DNA of 64,000 bases from assembly GCF_053078305.1 (NCBI RefSeq), contig NZ_CP166879.1; one strand, written 5' to 3'. Made by a program: the position numbers and the translations under genes. Positions 32,982 through 50,319 of the stretch are shown one piece after another. The notes beneath the pieces were generated by a model. It was not told the origin of the DNA. It made no database searches and saw nothing but the letters and a program-made list of their open reading frames with translations. Numbering within the stretch: position 1 is the first letter of the stretch; each line of letters begins with the position of its first letter.

Positions 32982-33058
32982 TGGTGCGTTGTACTGGATT
33001 CGAACCAGTGACCGATTGCTTAGAAGGCAATTGCTCTGTCCGGCTGAGCTAACAACGC
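32982..33058 (-). tRNA. argO: tRNA-Arg (anticodon TCT), argO-like
   Basis: Cloverleaf read by eye; anticodon loop CTTCTAA; GGTTCGAATCC T-arm; CCA end. Confidence 0.8.
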
Positions 33059-33071
33059 AGTGTACAGATAA

Positions 33072-33148
33072 TGGACCGCCATCGAGGACTCGAACCCCGC
33101 GCAACCAGCTTCGAAGGCTGGCGCTCTATCCCGATGAGCTAATGGCGG
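33072..33148 (-). tRNA. argN: tRNA-Arg (anticodon TCG), argN-like
   Basis: Anticodon loop CTTCGAA; GGTTCGAGTCC T-arm. Confidence 0.75.
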
Positions 33149-33155
33149 TATGTGA

Positions 33156-33231
33156 TGGTGGCCCTTGCTGGATTTGAACCAGCGACCTGGCGATTATGAG
33201 TCGCTCGCTCTCACCACTGAGCTAAAGGGCC
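33156..33231 (-). tRNA. ileZ: tRNA with CAT anticodon, ileX-like (tRNA-Ile2), ileZ-like
   Basis: GGCCCTTTAGCTCAGTGG...GACTCATAATCGC...GGTTCAAATCC...CCA; close to E. coli ileX. Confidence 0.75.
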
Positions 33232-33271: not shown

Positions 33272-34330
33272 TCATCCGTTCTGACTGGCTAAATCCTGAA
33301 CTTCCCTGACCGTCTGCTCAAAACGTTCAGTCTCCAGCTCAACGCCAGTTGCACGACGCCCCAGCGCCATCGCTGCTTTGACTGTCGAACCCGACCCCAT
33401 GAAAAAATCTGCAACCAGGTCACCCGGACGACTGCTCGCGCTGATTATCTGCTGCAGCATTTCTGCCGGTTTTTCGCACGGATGTTTCCCGGGATAGTAC
33501 TGCACCGGTTTATGCGTCCACACATCGGTGTACGGCACCTGCGCCGTCACGCCAAAATACCGCCGCAGATGCTTATATTCACTCTGCAGTTCCGTATAGT
33601 GTCGGTTCAGTTCACTGTATGTGCTGACCAGTTGGTGATGTGGCTTTTCCAGTTCTCCGCGCTGATGCTTCTCTTCTGCCACCCGGGCAAACAGCGCCTG
33701 TAATTTCAGATAATCGCTTTCGTCCGGTAGCTGCCACTGACTGGCACTGAACCAGTGCGACACCATGTTTTTCTTTCCTGTGGCATCAGCAATCTGTTTT
33801 GCCGTTATCCCCAGGGCAGCACGTGCATCACGAAAGTAAGCAATCAGCGGGGCCATCACATGCTGTTTCAGTGCCCTGCCCTTCGCCTCATACCCGGCAT
33901 CTTTCGGACGATACGGCCCCTGATAATGTTCCGCGAACAGAATGCGCTCTGTGGCGGGGAAATACGCCCTCAGGCTTTCCTTGTTGCACCCGTTCCAGCG
34001 TCCGGACGGCTTCGCCCAGATAATATGGTTCAGCACACTGAAGCGTTCACGCATCATGATTTCAATGTCAGATGCCAGGCGATGGCCACAGAACAGGTAA
34101 AGACTTCCGGCAGGTTTCAGCACCCGCCAGAACTGCGCCAGACACTGGTCCAGCCACTTCAGGTAATCATCGTCGCCCTTCCACTGGTTATCCCAGCCCT
34201 CAGGCTTCACTTTAAAGTACGGCGGGTCCGTGACTATCAGGTCAACAGAATTTTCGGGTAACGACCGGATAAATTCCAGGCAGTCGGCGTTGATTAACTC
34301 ACAACTGGATATTTTTACAGTATTAAGCAT
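33272..34330 (-). CDS. DNA methyltransferase, beta-class (N6-adenine or N4-cytosine), orphan
   Basis: 352 aa; DPPY (motif IV) near N-terminus, FFMGSGST (motif I) near C-terminus. Confidence 0.85.
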   Translation of the reverse strand: MLNTVKISSCELINADCLEFIRSLPENSVDLIVTDPPYFKVKPEGWDNQWKGDDDYLKWLDQCLAQFWRVLKPAGSLYLFCGHRLASDIEIMMRERFSVLNHIIWAKPSGRWNGCNKESLRAYFPATERILFAEHYQGPYRPKDAGYEAKGRALKQHVMAPLIAYFRDARAALGITAKQIADATGKKNMVSHWFSASQWQLPDESDYLKLQALFARVAEEKHQRGELEKPHHQLVSTYSELNRHYTELQSEYKHLRRYFGVTAQVPYTDVWTHKPVQYYPGKHPCEKPAEMLQQIISASSRPGDLVADFFMGSGSTVKAAMALGRRATGVELETERFEQTVREVQDLASQNG

Positions 34331-43475: not shown

Positions 43476-44465
43476 CTACCCCCTGAAACCCGGCGGAATT
43501 TCGGTATCCGGTTCAGAAATATGATTCACGCAACGCTGCGCGGGACCACGCCACAGTCGAATAACCAGTTCATCCCATTTCTCACGGAGTTTTTCCGGGC
43601 TCTTGATGTTTTTTATCCAGAACGGATCCCGTTGTGCCCGGCTGAACATTTCGCAAATTTGTCTGTGACTTCTTCCATCCAGCATCCGCATTGTGCGCAC
43701 GTCATTGGCCCACGCCGTCCAGTTGGGCTCTTTCGGTCGCGTGATCTCACCATCGTCACTGGCAGCCTGTTCGTACAGGTTTACAACCCGCCCCCAGATC
43801 CACTGCGCACACGTCAAATCCTCCCGGGTTCCCCACTGGCGTTTTTTCACGCTGAACACAACTGCATCAGGATGGCGGGTTAAAAACGCCTGTTCAGCCG
43901 TCAGCTCGTCCGGTTGCGAAGCGTCCGGACAAGAGAGTTTTTTATTCTCTGTTGTATTCTCTGTTGTATTCTCTGTTGTATTCTCTGTTGTATTCTCTGT
44001 AGGATCATCGGGCCATTTTGACCTGATGACATTGGGCCGTTTTGAACCAATGGAACGTTTCATTTTGACCTCTTCCATCGTGTCATTTTGACCTGATGGA
44101 GTGGCGCATTTTGACCCGATGGATTCGTTCACTTTGCCATCATCTAAAAGCGCGCTATCGTAGTTAATTGTGTAAAAATTAGTCATATCACGCTTCGATT
44201 TATTGAGCTTTTCGCTACGCAAAAGCCCCAGCGCTTTCAGACTTGCAAACGCACGCTTTAACGTTGACTCTGACCAGAACGGAAACTGTTCCAGCCATTG
44301 TTCCGTTGTGTTGTAAATCCAGCGAACGCCATCACATTCCATGCCGGAACTGGTATCCCTCAACCAGTAATGCAGTTGCTGCAACACAATGGCTTCGTTT
44401 AAACCAATCTTCATCGCCAGCTGTGTGTTTATAACCAGCGGGCGTTCAGCAAAAAGAAGGCTCAT
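43476..44465 (-). CDS. Replication initiator (O-like) containing origin iterons
   Basis: Internal start in track ORF 43476..44507; central TENTTENTTENTTENTTEN encoded by 12-bp tandem repeats. Confidence 0.65.
   Translation of the reverse strand: MSLLFAERPLVINTQLAMKIGLNEAIVLQQLHYWLRDTSSGMECDGVRWIYNTTEQWLEQFPFWSESTLKRAFASLKALGLLRSEKLNKSKRDMTNFYTINYDSALLDDGKVNESIGSKCATPSGQNDTMEEVKMKRSIGSKRPNVIRSKWPDDPTENTTENTTENTTENTTENKKLSCPDASQPDELTAEQAFLTRHPDAVVFSVKKRQWGTREDLTCAQWIWGRVVNLYEQAASDDGEITRPKEPNWTAWANDVRTMRMLDGRSHRQICEMFSRAQRDPFWIKNIKSPEKLREKWDELVIRLWRGPAQRCVNHISEPDTEIPPGFRG
43941..44001. repeat. About five tandem 12-bp repeats (TTCTCTGTTGTA), candidate origin iterons
   Basis: Seen directly in sequence inside the initiator gene. 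Confidence 0.7.
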
Positions 44466-44967
44466 AATTCCATCCGGCTTTTTGTTGGTACTGGTGACGA
44501 TAGGCACGCTTGAAAGCGATTGCTTTTTCTATAAGCTCGTCTGTCTCACGTTCCACAACAGCTGGATCTGCAAAAAGCAGCCCGGACTCCACCACATCGC
44601 CATATTCTTTGTTTAACCCGGCAATCATGTACGTAATGCTTTTTCCGTCAGTAATTTCGCGGTACAACCTGAAATCACTAATCCGGATAGCCTCCATAAT
44701 TGCCGGAATCAGCGCCGTGAATTTTTCTCGCTTATCCCTGGTGTCGATAGCCTTCCAGCGTTCGAATATCTTCACCCGGTTAACGCCAAGCGCACGCTGA
44801 TCAACCCCGCCATCATCAAGCGTGACACGCTGAACATCGATGTTCGGGCGTTCCTGTAGAGCCCAGAAGGCTTCAGTAATTAATATCGTCGCCTGCTCCT
44901 GCGTCATTCCTGGTCGGCTTATCCAGGCATCCAGGGCATCGCGTGCCTGCTCAAGGGTGATTTTCAT
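44446..44967 (-). CDS. Hypothetical protein in the cII slot
   Basis: 173 aa between cro-like gene and initiator. Confidence 0.4.
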   Translation of the reverse strand: MKITLEQARDALDAWISRPGMTQEQATILITEAFWALQERPNIDVQRVTLDDGGVDQRALGVNRVKIFERWKAIDTRDKREKFTALIPAIMEAIRISDFRLYREITDGKSITYMIAGLNKEYGDVVESGLLFADPAVVERETDELIEKAIAFKRAYRHQYQQKAGWNYEPSFC

Positions 44968-45264: not shown

Positions 45265-45672
45265 ATGGATACAAAAAATTTAACCATTGGCGAACGCATT
45301 AGATATCGCCGAAAAAGCCTCAAATACACCCAAAGGTCTCTTGCTAAAGCCCTGAAAATTTCTCATGTATCGGTTTCACAATGGGAACGGGATGACAGCG
45401 AACCGACAGGGAAGAATCTTTTTGCCCTCAGCAACGTACTGCAGTGCTCGCCAACATGGATTCTATTTGGCGATGAAGACAAGCAGCCATCACCACCTAT
45501 TGAGGAGCCAGTTGCTCTATCCCCCAAAGAACATGAGCTCCTTGAGCTTTTTAATGCATTGCCTGAATCAGAACAGGATGCTCAGCTCACCGAGATGCGC
45601 GCCCGAGTAAAAAATTTCAACAAACTCTTTGAAGAGTTATTAAAAGCCCGTCAACGAACAAACAAAAGATAA
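45265..45672 (+). CDS. dicA: Immunity repressor DicA (HTH XRE)
   Basis: MDTKNLTIGERIRYRRKSLKYTQRSLAKALKISHVSVSQWERDDSEPTGKNLFALSNVLQCSPTWILFGDEDKQP... Confidence 0.9.
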   Translation: MDTKNLTIGERIRYRRKSLKYTQRSLAKALKISHVSVSQWERDDSEPTGKNLFALSNVLQCSPTWILFGDEDKQPSPPIEEPVALSPKEHELLELFNALPESEQDAQLTEMRARVKNFNKLFEELLKARQRTNKR

Positions 45673-45991: not shown

Positions 45992-46249
45992 TTAGCACCA
46001 GTAAAAACAGGTTGCCACTGGTTAATTTACCCTGAAAAGTCAGGGCATAACACGAAAGCGCACGGAGAAGCTCGTCTCTCTGTACTTTGTCGCTAAATTT
46101 AATTCGACCGTGCGCTTCCGGTTGTGGCAATCCGCGAAATGGCGCGGCGGTAAGTATGGCTGGGGTTTCCTCCATTGCTCCAGAAAATGCACCGGGTTGT
46201 CAGGTTGACCATACGCTTAAGTGACAGCCCCGCCACAATACCCATGTGT

Positions 46250-46300
46250 AGTCTTTGGTGGCATCAGTTCTACTCCGTGACTGCTCTGCCACCCTTTTTA
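46250..46300 (+). ncRNA. dicF: DicF-like small RNA
   Basis: ...TGGTGGCATCAGTTCTACTCCGTGACTGCTCTGCCACCC followed by TTTTT; similar to my recollection of E. coli DicF with terminal hairpin. Confidence 0.55.
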
Positions 46301-46788
46301 AAGTGAATTTTGTGATGCGGTGAATGCGGCTAAGCGCACGCGGAACAGTTAAAACCGTAAAGTGGTCTTTTACGGGGCGTAACGGGCATACTTCTGTATT
46401 CCGGCGTTAATTGTTAACTGGTTAACGTCACCTGGAGGCACCAGGCACTGCATCAACAAAGTTCACTTCGGTGATGAAGGGTAAGAGAAAATGTTGAATG
46501 TAGCTATTGAAAACCAGAACGGGTGGAATTATAGTGCACCTGCACCTCATAAAACGGGTGCCGGGCGTGGAAACCCGATGATGATCAACGCGCATAACCG
46601 CGCTCAGGCGGTTTTTTTTATGCGTCAAGCACAGCCACATTCAAATTATGGTGGGGCGTGCAGGGCAGCTGCAAGGCTGGCCGGCTCCGTTGGTCACCGG
46701 TATTTCCACCCCTGTACGTCTCACCACCTTTATGGTCGTGGAAAACCTCGGTGGTGAGTTATTTAAACTGATCAACGAGGCTGCCATC

Positions 46789-47346
46789 ATGGCTACTACC
46801 CTTACCCTTTCTCACCCTGACGTAACCATCGAAAATGGTCGCGCAGTCACCACGTCTGTTGCAGTTGCAGAGTTCTTCCACAAACTGCATAAAAACGTCA
46901 TTCAAAAAATTGAAGCTCTGGAATGTTCCGACGAATTCACTGAGCTTAATTTTCAGCCCAGCGAATACACCGACACAACCGGTCGCAAACTCCCAATGTA
47001 CCAAATCACCAAAAACGGCTTCGTTTTCCTGGTGATGGGCTTCACCGGCAAAAAAGCCGCTGCATTTAAAGAAGCCTACATCGCTGAGTTCGATCGCATG
47101 GAGAAAGAACTGCGCCAGAATAACGCCCCGTCTCCCGACAAAATGATTCACGGGGACGGACGTACCCTGGTTATCCGTCTCGACGAACACGGCAATATCA
47201 AATTCACTGAAACCGTTCCGGACGGCGCAATGGTCTGCACCCTGGATACCTTCCAGTTTTATCTGGAAAAACAAGGCTGGACTCTTGTAAACCGGAGCGC
47301 AATTAAAAATATGACTGTGGAGCAATTACTAAAAATTCATTGTTGA
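46789..47346 (+). CDS. Rha-family phage regulatory protein
   Basis: Internal start MATTLTLSHPDVTIENGRAVTTSVAVAEFFHKLHKNVIQKIEALE... in track ORF 46648..47346. Confidence 0.65.
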   Translation: MATTLTLSHPDVTIENGRAVTTSVAVAEFFHKLHKNVIQKIEALECSDEFTELNFQPSEYTDTTGRKLPMYQITKNGFVFLVMGFTGKKAAAFKEAYIAEFDRMEKELRQNNAPSPDKMIHGDGRTLVIRLDEHGNIKFTETVPDGAMVCTLDTFQFYLEKQGWTLVNRSAIKNMTVEQLLKIHC

Positions 47347-47730: not shown

Positions 47731-47822
47731 TCCACCAGCCATATTAACGCCATACCCGTTGATTAAGCATGCCAGCAATGGCAGGGGTTCGTACAACCTT
47801 AAAATAGTTATGAGGTTTATCC

Positions 47823-50261
47823 ATGAGCACTGATAAAGAAGAATTTTCGCTATATTGCGAAGCAAAAAATGACAAGGTCAGAAAACGCCTTGGGATTAAA
47901 GGGGGTTTTTACTGGACTACAGCAAAAAAATTATCTGTTGCCATCTCACGGTGCGTTGTTGCAATGGACGAGGCAGGCTACGACGCTGATGATTTCAAAA
48001 AACCTGTCCGCGTCCATTTCCCCGTTGTGAATGACCTTCCACCGGAAGGCGTGTTTGATACCGAATTCTGCAACCGCTATGAAAAAGGCGGGGAAGATGG
48101 CATCACAATGATATTTATAGCGCCTTCCCCCTCAGTTCAGGACAAACCAGCCAGCACTGACAATACCAACGTCAATGGCGAAGACATGGCTGAGATTGAG
48201 GATAATATGCTCCTGCCAATTTCCGGTCAGGAACTGCCCATTCGCTGGCTTGCGCAACATGGCTGCGAAAAACCGGTAACGCACGTTTCACGGGAAGAAC
48301 TTCAGGCATTACATATCGCACGAGCTGAAGAACTGCCGGCTGTTACTGCCCTGGCTATTTCCCACAACACAAAGCTGCTCGACCCGCTGGAGATTCGCGA
48401 CCTTCACAAACTGGTACGCGACACAGACAAAGTTTTCCCTAATCCCGTTAATTCCAGTCTGGGGTTAATGACTGCTTTTTTCGAAGCATACCTGAACGCT
48501 GACTATACCGATCGAGGTCTGCTGACAAAAGAGTGGATGAAAGGAAATCGTGTTTCTCGCATCACCCGCACGGCTTCCGGTGCAAATGCCGGTGGCGGAA
48601 ATAAAACGGATCGTAATCCTGATTTAGTACACACCCTCGATACTCTGGATGTGGAGATTGCAGCAGCCACACTTCCGATGGATTTTAATATTTATGAAAT
48701 ACCCGTGAGCGTTTATCGTCGCGCAAAAGAAATCGTCCTGAAAAAAGAAAGTCCGTTCAGGGAATGGTCCCCAGCACTTCGCGCAACCCCTGGTATCCTG
48801 GACTATTCCCGCGCAGCTATTTTTGCACTTATCCGGAGCGCCCACCCTGAGTTTTATCACTACCCGGGACGTCTTCAGGGGTATATCAATGCCAACCTGA
48901 CAGAGACCGATCATGAGAATCCCACAACTGAAACTCTCACGGCTGCCCGGCATACACCGGAAAAAGATATCCTGGAAGAAATTAACGGAGGACTGGCTGC
49001 TGAGTGCAAAACAGAAGAAGAAAAAAATGATGAAGAAAACCCGCAACCATCTGGCGCAATGGCAGATGAACAGGCAACGGCTGAAACAATGGCAGCGGAT
49101 ACAGTTGAACATCATCAGGACCCGCAGCCGCTGGATGACAAGTCACAGGTAAAAGTTACTGCTGAAGAAGTAAATAAAATTATGGAGGCAGCAGACATCA
49201 GTCGACCAGATGCCGACAAATTGCTTGCCGCTTCTCGTGGTGAGTTTGTTGAAGGGATTAGCGACCCGAATGATTCGAAATGGGTTAAGGGGATTGAAAC
49301 CTGCGATTCTGTGAACCAGAACCAGCAAGAAACGGAACAGAACGGTCAGAAAGCGGAACAAAACAGCCCAAATGCGTTACAAAACGAGCCAGAAACGAAA
49401 CAACCTGAACCAGTCGTGCAACAGGAAGAGGAAAAAGTTTGTACCGCATGCAATCAGACTGGTGGTGGTAACTGCCCTGATTGTGGCGCAGTGATGGGTG
49501 ACGCAACCTACCAGGAGACATTCAACGAAGAAAGCCAGGATGAAGCCCGGGAAAAAGATCCGGAGGAAATGGAAAGTGCCGGACTCCCGAACAAGGAGTG
49601 CACCGAAGGCGATCAACATGCCAATGGCAATAATGAAACAGGCGAGACAGCAAATCCCTTAATTAAGGTGAACGGTCATCGTGAAATCACATCCACCAGC
49701 AGGTTGTGGCACCATCTGATGATTGACCTTGAAACAATGGGCAAAAATCCTGACGCACCAATAGCCTCAATAGGCGCTGTATTTTTCGATCCACAAACCG
49801 GAGAGCAGGGGCCTGAATTCAGCAAAATAATTGATATGGGTACATGTGGCGGCACTGTAGACATAAGCACCATCGAATGGTGGCTTCAACGCTCTGGCGA
49901 AGCCCGTGCCGCCATTTTAGCTGATCGAATACCGCTTGATGATGCGCTTTTACAATTACGGGAATTTATAGACGAAAACTCCGGTGAGTTTTTTGTTCAG
50001 GTCTGGGGAAATGGAGCCAACTTCGACAACGTGATTTTACGCCGTTCATATGAACGGCAGGAGATCCCCTGCCCGTGGCGTTACACCAATGATCGCGATG
50101 TAAGAACGATGGTCGCTCTGGGGTTGGTGATGGATTTCGATGCCCACAACGTCACCACATTTGAGGGTGAACGCCATAATGCCCTGCACGATGCGCGTTA
50201 CCAGGCAAAATACGTTTCAGCTATCTGGCAAAAACTGTTCCCGAGTCAGGCTGATTTTTAA
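47823..50261 (+). CDS. Large early-region protein with C-terminal DEDDh-type 3'-5' exonuclease domain
   Basis: 812 aa; C-terminal MIDLETMG..., ...WGNGANFD..., ...[11 protein letters not shown]...; acidic linker; [16 protein letters not shown]ys cluster. Confidence 0.6.
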
Positions 50262-50319
50262 TGTTCAACCCTGATCGCCGCTAACCGCATATAGTTAGCG
50301 GCGGTTATGAGATATAGCT

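What the first reader, a model, noticed from the sequence alone, without database searches (positions are those of the whole stretch)
47823..50261. 812-aa early-region protein combining an unknown N-terminal region, acidic linker, Cys cluster and DEDDh exonuclease domain
This is the only large gene between the immunity region and int, the slot where lambdoid phages carry recombination and exclusion functions. The C-terminal ~190 aa carry three DEDDh-type exonuclease motifs ([24 protein letters not shown]). The N-terminal ~450 aa have no motif I recognise. A central acidic low-complexity stretch and a CxxC...CxxC cluster are present. It could be a recombination exonuclease or a nuclease-based exclusion or anti-defence factor.
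Basis: partly seen in the sequence, partly recalled or inferred. Interest (0 to 1): 0.45.

Follow-up and report, generated by a model that had tools for sequence, protein, structure and literature searches.

The report
RecE-like protein with swapped exonuclease head
This prophage gene encodes the N-terminal three-quarters of the recombination protein RecE joined to a T4-DexA-like 3'-to-5' exonuclease in place of RecE's own nuclease; it never has the partner annealing protein RecT, and it is very common in E. coli, already annotated, but functionally untested.

Summary
The "unknown" N-terminal region is not unknown. Residues 50-614, including the acidic linker and the CxxC..CxxC cluster, are 56% identical to residues 42-591 of Rac RecE (Pfam PF06630). 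Homology stops where RecE's PD-(D/E)XK nuclease begins. A DEDDh domain takes its place (PF16473, E 2e-62), with all five catalytic residues; its closest solved relative is T4 DexA. The gene sits in the recE slot, as the last early-left gene before xis-int. Among 53 loci from different Enterobacterales species, 22 DEDDh-headed genes have no RecT within 10 kb. All 14 clearly PD-(D/E)XK-headed genes have recT directly downstream. A third, nuclease-less tail type also exists. The N-terminal region folds confidently but matches no solved or viral structure. Full-length copies occur in 1220 of 5426 complete E. coli genomes, annotated "exonuclease" or "exodeoxyribonuclease VIII". My best reading is an early phage function that processes DNA 3' ends on the RecE scaffold without an annealase. 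The main rival is an EcD/HREX-like nuclease against modified-DNA phages. It is a variant of known kinds and of moderate interest.

The parts
47812..47815 (+). Ribosome-binding site GAGG, 7 nt before the ATG
   Evidence: Read directly from the sequence. No promoter-like site above chance and no + strand terminator lie between dicB/DUF1482 and the gene.
47823..50261 (+). Whole coding sequence, 812 aa: RecE-type N-terminal region + linker + DEDDh exonuclease
   Evidence: ORF list; Pfam PF06630 + PF16473; an identical protein is already in NCBI, named 'exodeoxyribonuclease VIII' (P0001).
47823..48125 (+). N-terminal alpha/beta domain (aa 1-101); contains the nearly invariant [11 protein letters not shown] block (aa 66-76)
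48168..48956 (+). Helical domain (aa 116-378) of the RecE-type N-terminal region; includes the most conserved block AGGGNKTDR...PGILDYSRA (aa 256-332)
   Evidence: AF2 pLDDT is mostly >85. It has no solved or viral structural relative. 56% identical to RecE. The conserved block retrieved 52 loci in other species.
48957..49697 (+). Acidic, predicted-disordered linker (aa 379-625), homologous to the RecE linker
   Evidence: 23.5% D+E, net charge -39; pLDDT <50 over most of it; aligned to RecE up to residue 591.
49224..49283 (+). Conserved short motif [20 protein letters not shown] (aa 468-487) inside the linker, next to a helical island (aa 447-471)
   Evidence: It appears in the family consensus LAAxRGExVxGISDPxDPKW, with both head types. 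Modest AF2 confidence, 55-61.
49440..49484 (+). CxxC-N7-CxxC knuckle (C540, C543, C551, C554), probably Zn-binding
   Evidence: Positions. Conserved in K-12 RecE (CNACGQTGGDNCPDCG). Absent from 21 non-E. coli DEDDh-headed relatives. Low AF2 confidence. Metal binding is inferred, not shown.
49662..49703 (+). Mosaic junction: end of RecE homology (aa ~614) and start of the DEDDh domain (aa ~628)
   Evidence: BLASTP homology to RecE ends at aa 614 / RecE 591. The NCBIfam RecE model covers aa 1-614, model positions 1-602 of 877. RecE's own PD-(D/E)XK domain is at 615-850. PF16473 starts at aa 630.
49704..50246 (+). DexA-like DEDDh 3'-5' exonuclease domain (aa 628-808); catalytic D635, E637, D735, H785, D790
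   Evidence: PF16473 E 1.9e-62. Profile search against PDB finds only T4 DexA 8KEL/8KEN, E 1.8e-16. Foldseek top hits are DexA, RNase T, Orn and REXO2. Catalytic columns are conserved. pLDDT is about 85-92.

Best explanation
The gene encodes a head-swapped paralogue of the Rac-prophage recombination exonuclease RecE. The RecE N-terminal region comprises two confidently folded domains, the acidic disordered linker and a Cys knuckle. It is retained here as a scaffold or targeting module. RecE's 5'-to-3' PD-(D/E)XK nuclease is replaced by an active DexA-like DEDDh exonuclease that removes nucleotides from 3' ends.

The gene is transcribed with the early-left (pL/dicB-type) operon after induction or infection. 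I infer that it acts on the phage's own DNA metabolism. It would be brought to DNA ends or recombination intermediates by the RecE-type region. There it would either resect 3' strands of duplex ends to leave 5' tails, or trim 3' tails and flaps. It therefore needs no dedicated RecT annealase.

Shown here: the domain identities, intact catalytic residues, gene position, and strict absence of an annealase partner. Inferred: that the enzyme is active, that its substrate is DNA, that the N-terminal region targets it, and that the biological role is end-processing or recombination.
For: The head swap is precise. aa 50-614 are 56% identical to RecE 42-591, with no similarity afterwards. RecE has PF12684 at 615-850, whereas this protein has PF16473 at 630-802.

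The five DEDDh residues are conserved across relatives. The closest solved relative by sequence and by fold is T4 DexA, a DNA 3'-5' exonuclease (PMC12153337).

The gene occupies the same slot as recE: last early-left gene, directly before xis-int, after kil/dicB-type genes.

Head type predicts partner. 22 DEDDh-headed loci have no RecT within 10 kb. All 14 PD-(D/E)XK-headed loci have recT directly downstream (Fisher p 2.6e-10). No annealase is detectable anywhere in the window.

No own promoter rises above chance and there is no upstream terminator. The gene lies downstream of DicF and dicB in one operon.

Stand-alone homologues in unrelated phages sit mostly in replication or recombination modules: erf-ssb-exo-abc2 in g341c, and next to a recombinase, helicases, or a Cas4-type exonuclease and DNA polymerase in others.

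There is a precedent for annealase-independent joining after 3'-5' resection: XthA-dependent iVEC, which is independent of RecA and RecET (PMC6379578). DexA's 3'-5' activity contributes to T4 intron homing (PMC12153337). Full-length RecE improves linear-linear recombination over the nuclease domain alone, so the N-terminal region has some end-related role (PMC11611040).
Against: No experiment exists on this protein or any RecE-N/DEDDh fusion in the literature I could search.

The function of the RecE N-terminal region is still described as unknown (PMC11611040; PMC13048471), so 'targeting' is a guess.

A 3'-5' single-strand exonuclease destroys the 3' tails used in annealing recombination. Deleting host ExoI raises RecET assembly more than 70-fold. 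The head could therefore be anti-recombinogenic rather than recombinogenic.

The Pfam family is named after an exoribonuclease, so RNA cannot be excluded as the substrate.

The one tested bacterial DexA homologue, EcD, behaves as an anti-T4 defence nuclease.

Expression timing is inferred from operon position only.
Confidence: 0.42

Rival explanations
1. It is an HREX/EcD-like exclusion nuclease. The DexA-like head would selectively degrade hydroxymethylcytosine-modified DNA of incoming T-even phages, protecting the lysogen or the induced cell from competitors. The RecE-type region would be an accessory.
For: DexA is the closest solved relative. Kang et al. 2025 show that a stand-alone E. coli DexA homologue (EcD) cuts only 5hmC DNA and protects against T4 when carried on a plasmid. 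They report that bacterial DexA homologues are most common in Escherichia, Citrobacter and Klebsiella. Those genera are among those where I find DEDDh-headed fusions. The DexA D169 equivalent is kept (D771, mapping).
Against: The gene lies inside the repressor-controlled early-left operon with no promoter of its own above chance, so it is probably silent in the lysogen. DexA W152, which that paper requires for 5hmC recognition, aligns to T755 here. EcD is a stand-alone protein (starts MIDTET, ends TIPETY), not a RecE fusion. No PADLOC model matches. Stand-alone homologues in lytic and temperate phages sit in replication or recombination modules.
Confidence: 0.2
2. It is an anti-recombination or competitor-interference factor. 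It would use the same N-terminal module as RecE to reach the same DNA ends, then erase the 3' single-stranded tails that RecE/RecT or lambda Red systems of co-resident or superinfecting phages need. This would block their recombination or end-dependent replication.
For: It shares the N-terminal region with RecE but has opposite nuclease polarity. Host 3'-5' ssDNA exonuclease ExoI strongly antagonises RecET and Red. E. coli genomes often carry several copies or relatives, with a median of 2 matching places per genome and up to 9, so RecE-type and DEDDh-type genes can coexist. The strict absence of RecT fits a protein that does not promote annealing.
Against: There is no evidence that the N-terminal region targets DNA ends. 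No benefit to the carrying phage has been demonstrated. Stand-alone homologues co-occur with annealases in g341c and the Yersinia and Proteus phages, which is hard to reconcile with an anti-annealing role.
Confidence: 0.12
3. It is an RNA 3'-end exonuclease (Rv2179c-like or RNase T-like). It would act on phage or host RNAs, for example maturing or degrading tRNAs or small RNAs of the early operon.
For: The Pfam family is named for an exoribonuclease, and NCBI names many copies '3'-5' exoribonuclease'. RNase T and oligoribonuclease are close structural neighbours. The prophage carries three tRNA genes and three small RNA genes.
Against: The closest relative by sequence and by fold is a DNA exonuclease, DexA. 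The fusion partner and gene slot are those of a DNA recombination protein. Relatives in other genera were not checked for tRNA genes. RNase T itself also trims DNA.
Confidence: 0.08
4. It is a non-functional mosaic relic produced by illegitimate recombination between a recE gene and a stand-alone phage exonuclease gene, and it drifts in defective prophages.
For: Lambdoid early regions are highly mosaic. The closest complete-genome copies are split into two pieces (pseudogene 'RecE family' plus '3'-5' exonuclease'). K-12 ydfE is a truncated remnant of a related gene. Many representatives are truncated.
Against: Intact 812-aa copies at 98-100% identity are seen on hundreds of contigs. 1220 complete E. 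coli genomes hold at least 80% of the gene. The same architecture recurs at 33-60% identity in at least 21 other species, with catalytic residues conserved. That pattern indicates purifying selection.
Confidence: 0.05

Closest known systems
RecE (exonuclease VIII) of the E. coli Rac prophage, with RecT
   Same: 56% identity over aa 50-614, covering the N-terminal domains, the acidic linker and the CxxC..CxxC knuckle. Same Pfam PF06630. Same position in the early-left operon, before xis-int.
   Different: RecE's C-terminal PD-(D/E)XK 5'-3' dsDNA exonuclease (PF12684, aa 615-850) is absent and replaced by a DEDDh 3'-5' exonuclease. No recT follows the gene. The score is below the NCBIfam RecE equivalog cutoff, 880 against 1269 bits. 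The common database name 'exodeoxyribonuclease VIII' is therefore a misnomer.
T4 DexA (exonuclease A; PDB 8KEL/8KEN)
   Same: It is the closest solved relative of the C-terminal domain by sequence (E 1.7e-5 single sequence, 1.8e-16 profile) and by fold (Foldseek rank 1). All DEDDh catalytic residues align.
   Different: DexA is a 227-aa stand-alone protein of a lytic phage with extra loops, and only about 22-24% identical. Its proposed 5hmC-recognition Trp (W152) aligns to Thr here. The temperature-switch residues are only partly kept: S87 aligns to P704 and D90 to D707.
EcD / HREX (E. coli DexA homologue, GenBank HAK9828821.1; Kang et al. 2025)
   Same: It is a bacterial or prophage-borne member of the same DexA-like DEDDh group. 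It is the only such protein with experimental data: a 5hmC-specific exonuclease that protects against T4.
   Different: EcD is a stand-alone protein with different termini (MIDTET... to ...TIPETY). It has no RecE-type region, and its genomic context is not described in the paper. I could not obtain its sequence for direct comparison (one search gave only a chance match).
Rv2179c of Mycobacterium tuberculosis (namesake of Pfam PF16473)
   Same: The domain matches the Pfam family built around Rv2179c, end to end (profile positions 1-177 of 177).
   Different: Rv2179c is described as an exoribonuclease of a bacterium, not a phage DNA enzyme. No Rv2179c chain appeared in the PDB sequence searches at E<=0.1, so the relationship is distant.
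XthA-dependent in vivo cloning (iVEC) in E. coli
   Same: It is a functional analogy only. A 3'-5' exonuclease resects duplex ends to 5' overhangs, which anneal without RecA or RecET. This shows that reverse-polarity resection can support joining without an annealase.
   Different: XthA is an unrelated fold (exonuclease III family) and a host repair enzyme. There is no evidence that the protein studied here acts on duplex ends.

Membership tests
RecE / exodeoxyribonuclease VIII (NCBIfam NF007259 equivalog) | RecE-type N-terminal region (Pfam PF06630) | tested here: met
   PF06630 E 6.3e-34, 118 bits against a cutoff of 25. 56% identity to K-12 RecE residues 42-591.
RecE / exodeoxyribonuclease VIII (NCBIfam NF007259 equivalog) | C-terminal PD-(D/E)XK 5'-3' exonuclease domain (PF12684; RecE aa ~606-866) | tested here: not met
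   No PF12684 hit. No BLASTP similarity beyond aa 614. RecE itself has PF12684 at 615-850.
RecE / exodeoxyribonuclease VIII (NCBIfam NF007259 equivalog) | Whole-protein score at or above the curated equivalog cutoff | tested here: not met
   880.5 bits against a cutoff of 1269; only model positions 1-602 of 877 are matched.
Two-component phage recombinase (exonuclease + single-strand annealing protein; RecET / Red type) | Adjacent gene for an annealase (RecT, Red-beta, Erf, Rad52-like) | tested here: not met
   xis follows the gene directly. No annealase Pfam among the early genes. No tblastn hit in the whole window with eight queries (seven annealase/recombinase-type sequences plus the RecE PD-(D/E)XK domain) at E<=0.1. 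0 of 21 related DEDDh-headed loci have RecT, against 14 of 14 PD-(D/E)XK-headed loci.
Two-component phage recombinase (exonuclease + single-strand annealing protein; RecET / Red type) | 5'-3' resection of duplex ends leaving 3' tails | not testable with these tools
   The fold predicts the opposite polarity (DEDDh family). A biochemical assay is needed.
DEDDh (DnaQ-like) 3'-5' exonucleases, Pfam PF16473 Rv2179c-like | Family profile match above the gathering threshold over the full domain | tested here: met
   E 1.9e-62, 210.6 bits against a cutoff of 27; profile positions 1-177 of 177.
DEDDh (DnaQ-like) 3'-5' exonucleases, Pfam PF16473 Rv2179c-like | Five catalytic residues D-E-D-H-D in three Exo motifs | tested here: met
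   D635, E637, D735, H785 and D790 align to the DexA catalytic residues. They are invariant in the domain alignment and conserved in 13 of 14 DEDDh-headed representatives.
DEDDh (DnaQ-like) 3'-5' exonucleases, Pfam PF16473 Rv2179c-like | RNase H-like DEDDh fold | tested here: met
   The AF2 domain has pLDDT about 85-92. Foldseek matches DexA, RNase T, Orn and REXO2 at probability 1.00, TM (target-normalised) 0.58-0.74.
DEDDh (DnaQ-like) 3'-5' exonucleases, Pfam PF16473 Rv2179c-like | Metal-dependent 3'-5' exonuclease activity | not testable with these tools
   Requires a nuclease assay of aa ~615-812 and D635A/E637A controls.
HREX (DexA/EcD 5hmC-recognising exonucleases; Kang et al. 2025) | Homology to DexA with conserved catalytic residues | tested here: met
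HREX (DexA/EcD 5hmC-recognising exonucleases; Kang et al. 2025) | Trp equivalent to DexA W152 (5hmC stacking) | tested here: not met
   In the HMMER alignment, W152 (PCKFWNQRD) aligns to T755 (PWRYTNDRD). Relatives have W, Y, C or V at this position.
HREX (DexA/EcD 5hmC-recognising exonucleases; Kang et al. 2025) | Acidic residue equivalent to DexA D169 | tested here: met
   D169 (LVRDMTT) aligns to D771 (LVMDFDA). The alignment confidence there is moderate.
HREX (DexA/EcD 5hmC-recognising exonucleases; Kang et al. 2025) | Loss of the tetramer-forming residues (DexA S87/D90), giving a dimer-only, 5hmC-only enzyme | tested here: inconclusive
   S87 aligns to P704 but D90 aligns to D707, which is retained. 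This is a loop region and the oligomeric state was not modelled.
HREX (DexA/EcD 5hmC-recognising exonucleases; Kang et al. 2025) | Selective cleavage of 5hmC DNA and protection against T4 | not testable with these tools
   Needs in vitro assays on modified DNA and plating assays.
Known anti-phage defence systems (PADLOC-DB v2) | Match to any defence-system protein model | tested here: not met
   0 families at E<=0.01. The library dates from 2023 and predates HREX.

The most novel reading that the evidence does not exclude
The RecE-type N-terminal region has a confident fold with no solved or viral structural relative. It may be an autonomous platform, the conserved core of the last early-left gene of many enterobacterial lambdoid prophages. 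That platform would carry interchangeable effector heads: a 5'-3' PD-(D/E)XK nuclease that always comes with RecT, a 3'-5' DexA-like nuclease that never does, or a nuclease-free tail. On this reading the DEDDh version would define a reverse-polarity, annealase-independent route of phage DNA end-processing. That route would replace the Red/RecET and Gam functions in a very common class of E. coli prophages. It would also offer a handle on the long-unexplained function of RecE's N-terminal 600 residues.
Probability: 0.25. Interest if true: 0.6.

Novelty: new variant of a known kind. Interest (0 to 1): 0.36.

Why it matters
RecE/RecT is a workhorse of recombineering, yet the function of RecE's large N-terminal region is still called unknown in 2023 and 2026 papers. 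This gene shows that the same region is naturally combined with a nuclease of opposite polarity, and also with no nuclease at all. Only the 5'-3' version travels with RecT. That gives a natural head-swap series for working out what the N-terminal region does.

It also flags a widespread mis-annotation: 'exodeoxyribonuclease VIII' applied to a protein that lacks the exonuclease VIII domain.

Finally, it places the recently described DexA/EcD 'HREX' family in its likely genomic home, prophage early operons. The published work on HREX does not mention that context. If the head turns out to discriminate modified DNA, these very common prophage genes would be relevant to phage therapy and to contamination control. 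If it instead processes the phage's own DNA, the defence interpretation of bacterial DexA homologues would need qualifying.

Tried and rejected
1. I guessed that K-12 ydfE (Qin) was a truncated copy. Direct BLASTP to the window protein found nothing. ydfE is related only to variant N-terminal segments of other family members, so it is a relative of the family, not of this allele.

2. PADLOC scan: no hit.

3. The first word-index homologue search was saturated by near-identical E. coli entries and gave no diversity. I replaced it with the 50%-clustered search.

4. The first literature search matched 'receptor' and was wasted.

5. The Gifsy-1/RtcR paper and the retron paper mention 'exodeoxyribonuclease VIII' but concern other genes or authentic RecE.

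6. A locus survey with the broad N-terminal alignment failed because no block was conserved enough. It was redone with a 112-aa block.

8. An attempt to recover the EcD gene from its published primers gave only a chance match in an unrelated contig.

9. Own promoter: one weak 9/12 site at 47778-47805, no more than shuffles give. I do not treat it as evidence.

10. A third Pfam domain in the 'neither head' representatives: none found.

11. Gam or Abc2 in the neighbourhood: none in 53 loci (Gam query validated). This is compatible with an end-protection role but does not show one.
Full report
OBSERVATION. A GAGG ribosome-binding site lies 7 nt upstream. The three exonuclease motifs are at aa 635-640 (DLETMG), 729-735 (GNGANFD) and 785-795 ([11 protein letters not shown]). 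The Cys cluster is C540/C543/C551/C554. The central stretch aa 379-625 is 23.5% Asp+Glu with net charge -39.

CONTEXT. The window holds a lambdoid prophage integrated at tRNA-Ser(CGA), next to mtfA, tRNA-Asn and yeeJ. The early-left operon reads as follows:
- a DicA/cI-like repressor (45265-45672);
- the small RNAs DicF, IsrK and C4;
- a Rha-family protein, DicB and a DUF1482 protein;
- the gene in question;
- a DUF4224 excisionase-like protein and the integrase.

No promoter-like site above chance and no terminator separate the gene from dicB. It is therefore most likely co-transcribed with the repressor-controlled early operon. This is an inference from position.

WHAT THE PROTEIN IS. Pfam finds PF06630 ('Enterobacterial exodeoxyribonuclease VIII') at aa 51-189 and PF16473 ('Rv2179c-like 3'-5' exoribonuclease') at aa 630-802, the latter with E 1.9e-62. 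NCBI's RecE equivalog model matches aa 1-614 to model positions 1-602 of 877. The total of 880 bits is below the 1269-bit cutoff.

Direct BLASTP against K-12 RecE gives 56% identity for aa 50-614 against RecE 42-591. That span includes the acidic linker and the Cys knuckle (CNACGQTGGDNCPDCG in RecE). Nothing aligns after residue 614. RecE's own nuclease domain (PF12684, PD-(D/E)XK) occupies RecE 615-850. So the protein is RecE with its nuclease head exchanged at the domain boundary. The 'unknown N-terminal region' is the RecE N-terminal region.

PGAP sees the same thing. In a 97%-identical but disrupted copy, it calls the 5' piece 'RecE family exodeoxyribonuclease' and the 3' piece '3'-5' exonuclease'.

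THE HEAD. The only solved relatives by sequence are T4 DexA wild type and its S87A/D90A mutant (8KEL/8KEN). The E-value is 1.7e-5 with the single sequence and 1.8e-16 with a domain profile. D635, E637, D735, H785 and D790 align with the DexA catalytic residues. They are invariant in the domain alignment and kept in 13 of 14 DEDDh-headed representatives. The full-length AlphaFold model gives pLDDT of about 85-92 for aa 628-808. Its best structural matches are DexA, then RNase T, oligoribonuclease and REXO2.

The linker (379-625) is predicted disordered, except for a helical island at 447-471 next to a motif conserved across the family, LAAxRGExVxGISDPxDPKW. Reviews and primary papers from 2023 and 2026 still state that the function of RecE's N-terminal part is unknown. 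Full-length RecE does improve linear-linear recombination.

DISTRIBUTION. The exact protein is already in NCBI under the names 'exodeoxyribonuclease VIII', 'exonuclease' and '3'-5' exoribonuclease'. Near-identical copies are seen on hundreds of contigs. Of 5426 complete E. coli genomes, 1220 hold at least 80% of the gene and 4694 hold some match.

The RecE-type N-terminal region itself is a narrow family, with 259 representatives at E<=1e-3 among 1.84 billion cluster representatives. Of 80 representatives of 450 aa or more, 14 carry the DEDDh head, 20 the RecE-type head and 46 neither. The 46 have no third Pfam domain. Many of them share a conserved non-nuclease tail.

HEAD TYPE PREDICTS PARTNER. 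A conserved 112-aa block retrieved 52 loci from different Enterobacterales species. They break down as follows:
- All 21 DEDDh-headed loci lack RecT within 10 kb.
- All 14 recognisable PD-(D/E)XK-headed loci have recT directly downstream.
- 8 further loci with recT have a head too divergent for tblastn. Three that I inspected resemble the P0140-type PD-(D/E)XK head.
- 9 have neither a recognisable head nor RecT.

 With the window included, this is 22 against 14 (Fisher p 2.6e-10). The gene neighbourhoods agree. DEDDh-headed genes lie directly before xis-int, after kil/dicB-type genes. The PD-(D/E)XK-headed gene is followed by recT, as in Rac. The whole 64-kb window has no annealase by Pfam or by tblastn with eight queries (seven annealase/recombinase-type sequences plus the RecE PD-(D/E)XK domain).

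None of the 53 loci has a lambda Gam or P22 Abc2 homologue nearby (the Gam query was validated). In other genera the DEDDh head follows the N-block after about 130-150 aa and has no Cys knuckle. The long linker of the E. coli version is therefore specifically RecE-like.

RELATIVES OF THE HEAD IN PHAGES. Stand-alone ~180-aa homologues (31-57% identity in the neighbourhoods sampled) occur in many phages. Their positions are:
- In the P22-like phage g341c, the gene lies between erf/ssb and abc2.
- In Yersinia phage P840, it is in the early region, about 2 kb downstream of a 'DNA recombinase' gene.
- In Proteus phage 2207-N35, it lies among helicase and recombinase genes.
- In Rhodobacter phage RcRios, it lies in a run of genes reading Cas4-family exonuclease, a hypothetical protein, the exonuclease, then DNA polymerase.
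- In mEp460 and Vibrio phage K270, it lies immediately before xis or int.

This pattern favours a role in phage DNA metabolism.

THE ONE EXPERIMENTAL PRECEDENT. Kang et al. (NAR 2025, PMC12153337) solved the DexA structure. They showed that a stand-alone E. coli homologue, EcD, degrades only 5hmC-modified DNA and protects against T4. They named the strategy HREX. They report that bacterial DexA homologues are commonest in Escherichia, Citrobacter and Klebsiella. Those genera are among those where I find the fused genes. The paper does not mention prophages or RecE fusions.

I mapped their specificity residues through the HMMER alignment. W152 aligns to T755, so it is not conserved here, although it is Trp in mEp460 and g341c. 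D169 aligns to D771, which is conserved. S87 and D90 align to P704 and D707. Membership of HREX is thus only partly supported. The gene's position in a repressed operon also argues against a lysogen-expressed defence.

MECHANISM. What is shown: the architecture, an intact active site, the recE slot, and no annealase. What is inferred: that the enzyme removes 3' nucleotides from DNA, and that the RecE-type region delivers or regulates it.

Two published facts frame the possibilities. First, 3'-5' resection of duplex ends by XthA yields 5' overhangs that anneal without RecA or RecET. Second, the 3'-5' ssDNA exonuclease ExoI antagonises RecET and Red more than 65-fold.

The first makes an annealase-free, reverse-polarity end-processing role plausible, and it explains why RecT is dispensable. 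The second supports the rival idea of an antagonist of annealing recombination. I rank the readings as follows:
- end-processing of the phage's own DNA, 0.42;
- HREX-like exclusion, 0.20;
- anti-recombination interference, 0.12;
- an RNA substrate, 0.08;
- a decaying relic, 0.05. The relic reading is contradicted by conservation across at least 21 species and hundreds of intact copies.

VERDICT. This is a real gene and a correct domain call, but not a new kind of protein. It is a common, already annotated and often mis-named head-swap variant of RecE carrying a DexA-like exonuclease. What appears to be undescribed is the modular pattern (one N-terminal platform with three alternative tails) and the strict linkage of RecT to only one of them. 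Interest is moderate.

Noticed in passing
window 46243-46294, 46542-46618, 46644-46731 (+), then ORF 46783-47346: Rfam gathering-level matches to DicF, IsrK and the C4 antisense RNA lie in a row in the early-left operon. The C4 RNA is immediately 5' of a Rha-family (PF09669) ORF. This resembles a P1/P7 immI-like antisense-controlled antirepressor module combined with a Qin-type dicF-dicB operon.
   Followed up: partly
L002 6079-6999 (K-12 ydfE) versus P0161 aa 225-404 and L058/L061/L063: The K-12 Qin pseudogene ydfE is 58% identical to an insert in a DEDDh-headed family member. It is 22-24% identical to the N-termini of nuclease-less members, but has no match to the window protein. So ydfE is a truncated remnant of a variant of this mosaic gene family, in the same slot after dicB-ydfD.
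   Followed up: partly
L058, L059, L061, L063 (Lelliottia/Enterobacter, 625-634 aa); L048/L049 (Prodigiosinella, 561 aa): These are intact family members with the RecE-type N-block but no nuclease head and no RecT. The Lelliottia/Enterobacter proteins (L058, L059, L061, L063) share a conserved non-nuclease C-terminal tail (ending ...QQLTIAALQGLCSNPAY...), which is also found in many 50%-cluster representatives; the Prodigiosinella proteins share only a short linker motif with it.
   Followed up: partly
P0128 (814 aa representative): Here the RecE-type N-terminal region appears to be fused directly to a C-terminal annealase-like region (possibly one of the two RecT-family members counted), with no nuclease between. 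This could be a real fusion or a gene-calling or frameshift artefact.
   Followed up: no
L006 14605-17043 (E. coli JNEC-KY171) and hits H1-H3: In the three closest complete-genome copies (96-97% identity) the annotation is split in two; in the one inspected (JNEC-KY171) these are a 'RecE family' pseudogene fragment and a '3'-5' exonuclease' CDS. Some copies are therefore being inactivated.
   Followed up: no
window 50277-50300: An inverted repeat CCGCTAAC-N8-GTTAGCGG lies in the 58-nt gap between the stop codon of the exonuclease gene and the start of the DUF4224 excisionase-like gene. It has no T-run, so it is not a typical terminator.
   Followed up: no
window 43476-44507 (-): A 343-aa ORF next to the YdaT-like gene contains a perfect peptide repeat, TENT TENT TENT TENT. 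It reflects a tandem DNA repeat inside the gene and is possibly origin iterons within a replication-initiator gene. No Pfam match.
   Followed up: no
window 32982-33231 (-) and 33275-34330 (-): Three phage tRNA genes (Arg-TCT, Arg-TCG, Met-CAT) lie next to a DNA methylase gene, in the region of the Q antiterminator gene. This arrangement is typical of EHEC-type lambdoid prophages.
   Followed up: no
all 53 loci (L013-L064 and the window), +-10 kb: No lambda Gam or P22 Abc2 homologue accompanies any RecE-N-type gene, whichever head it carries. These prophages have no recognisable RecBCD inhibitor in the early-left operon.
   Followed up: partly
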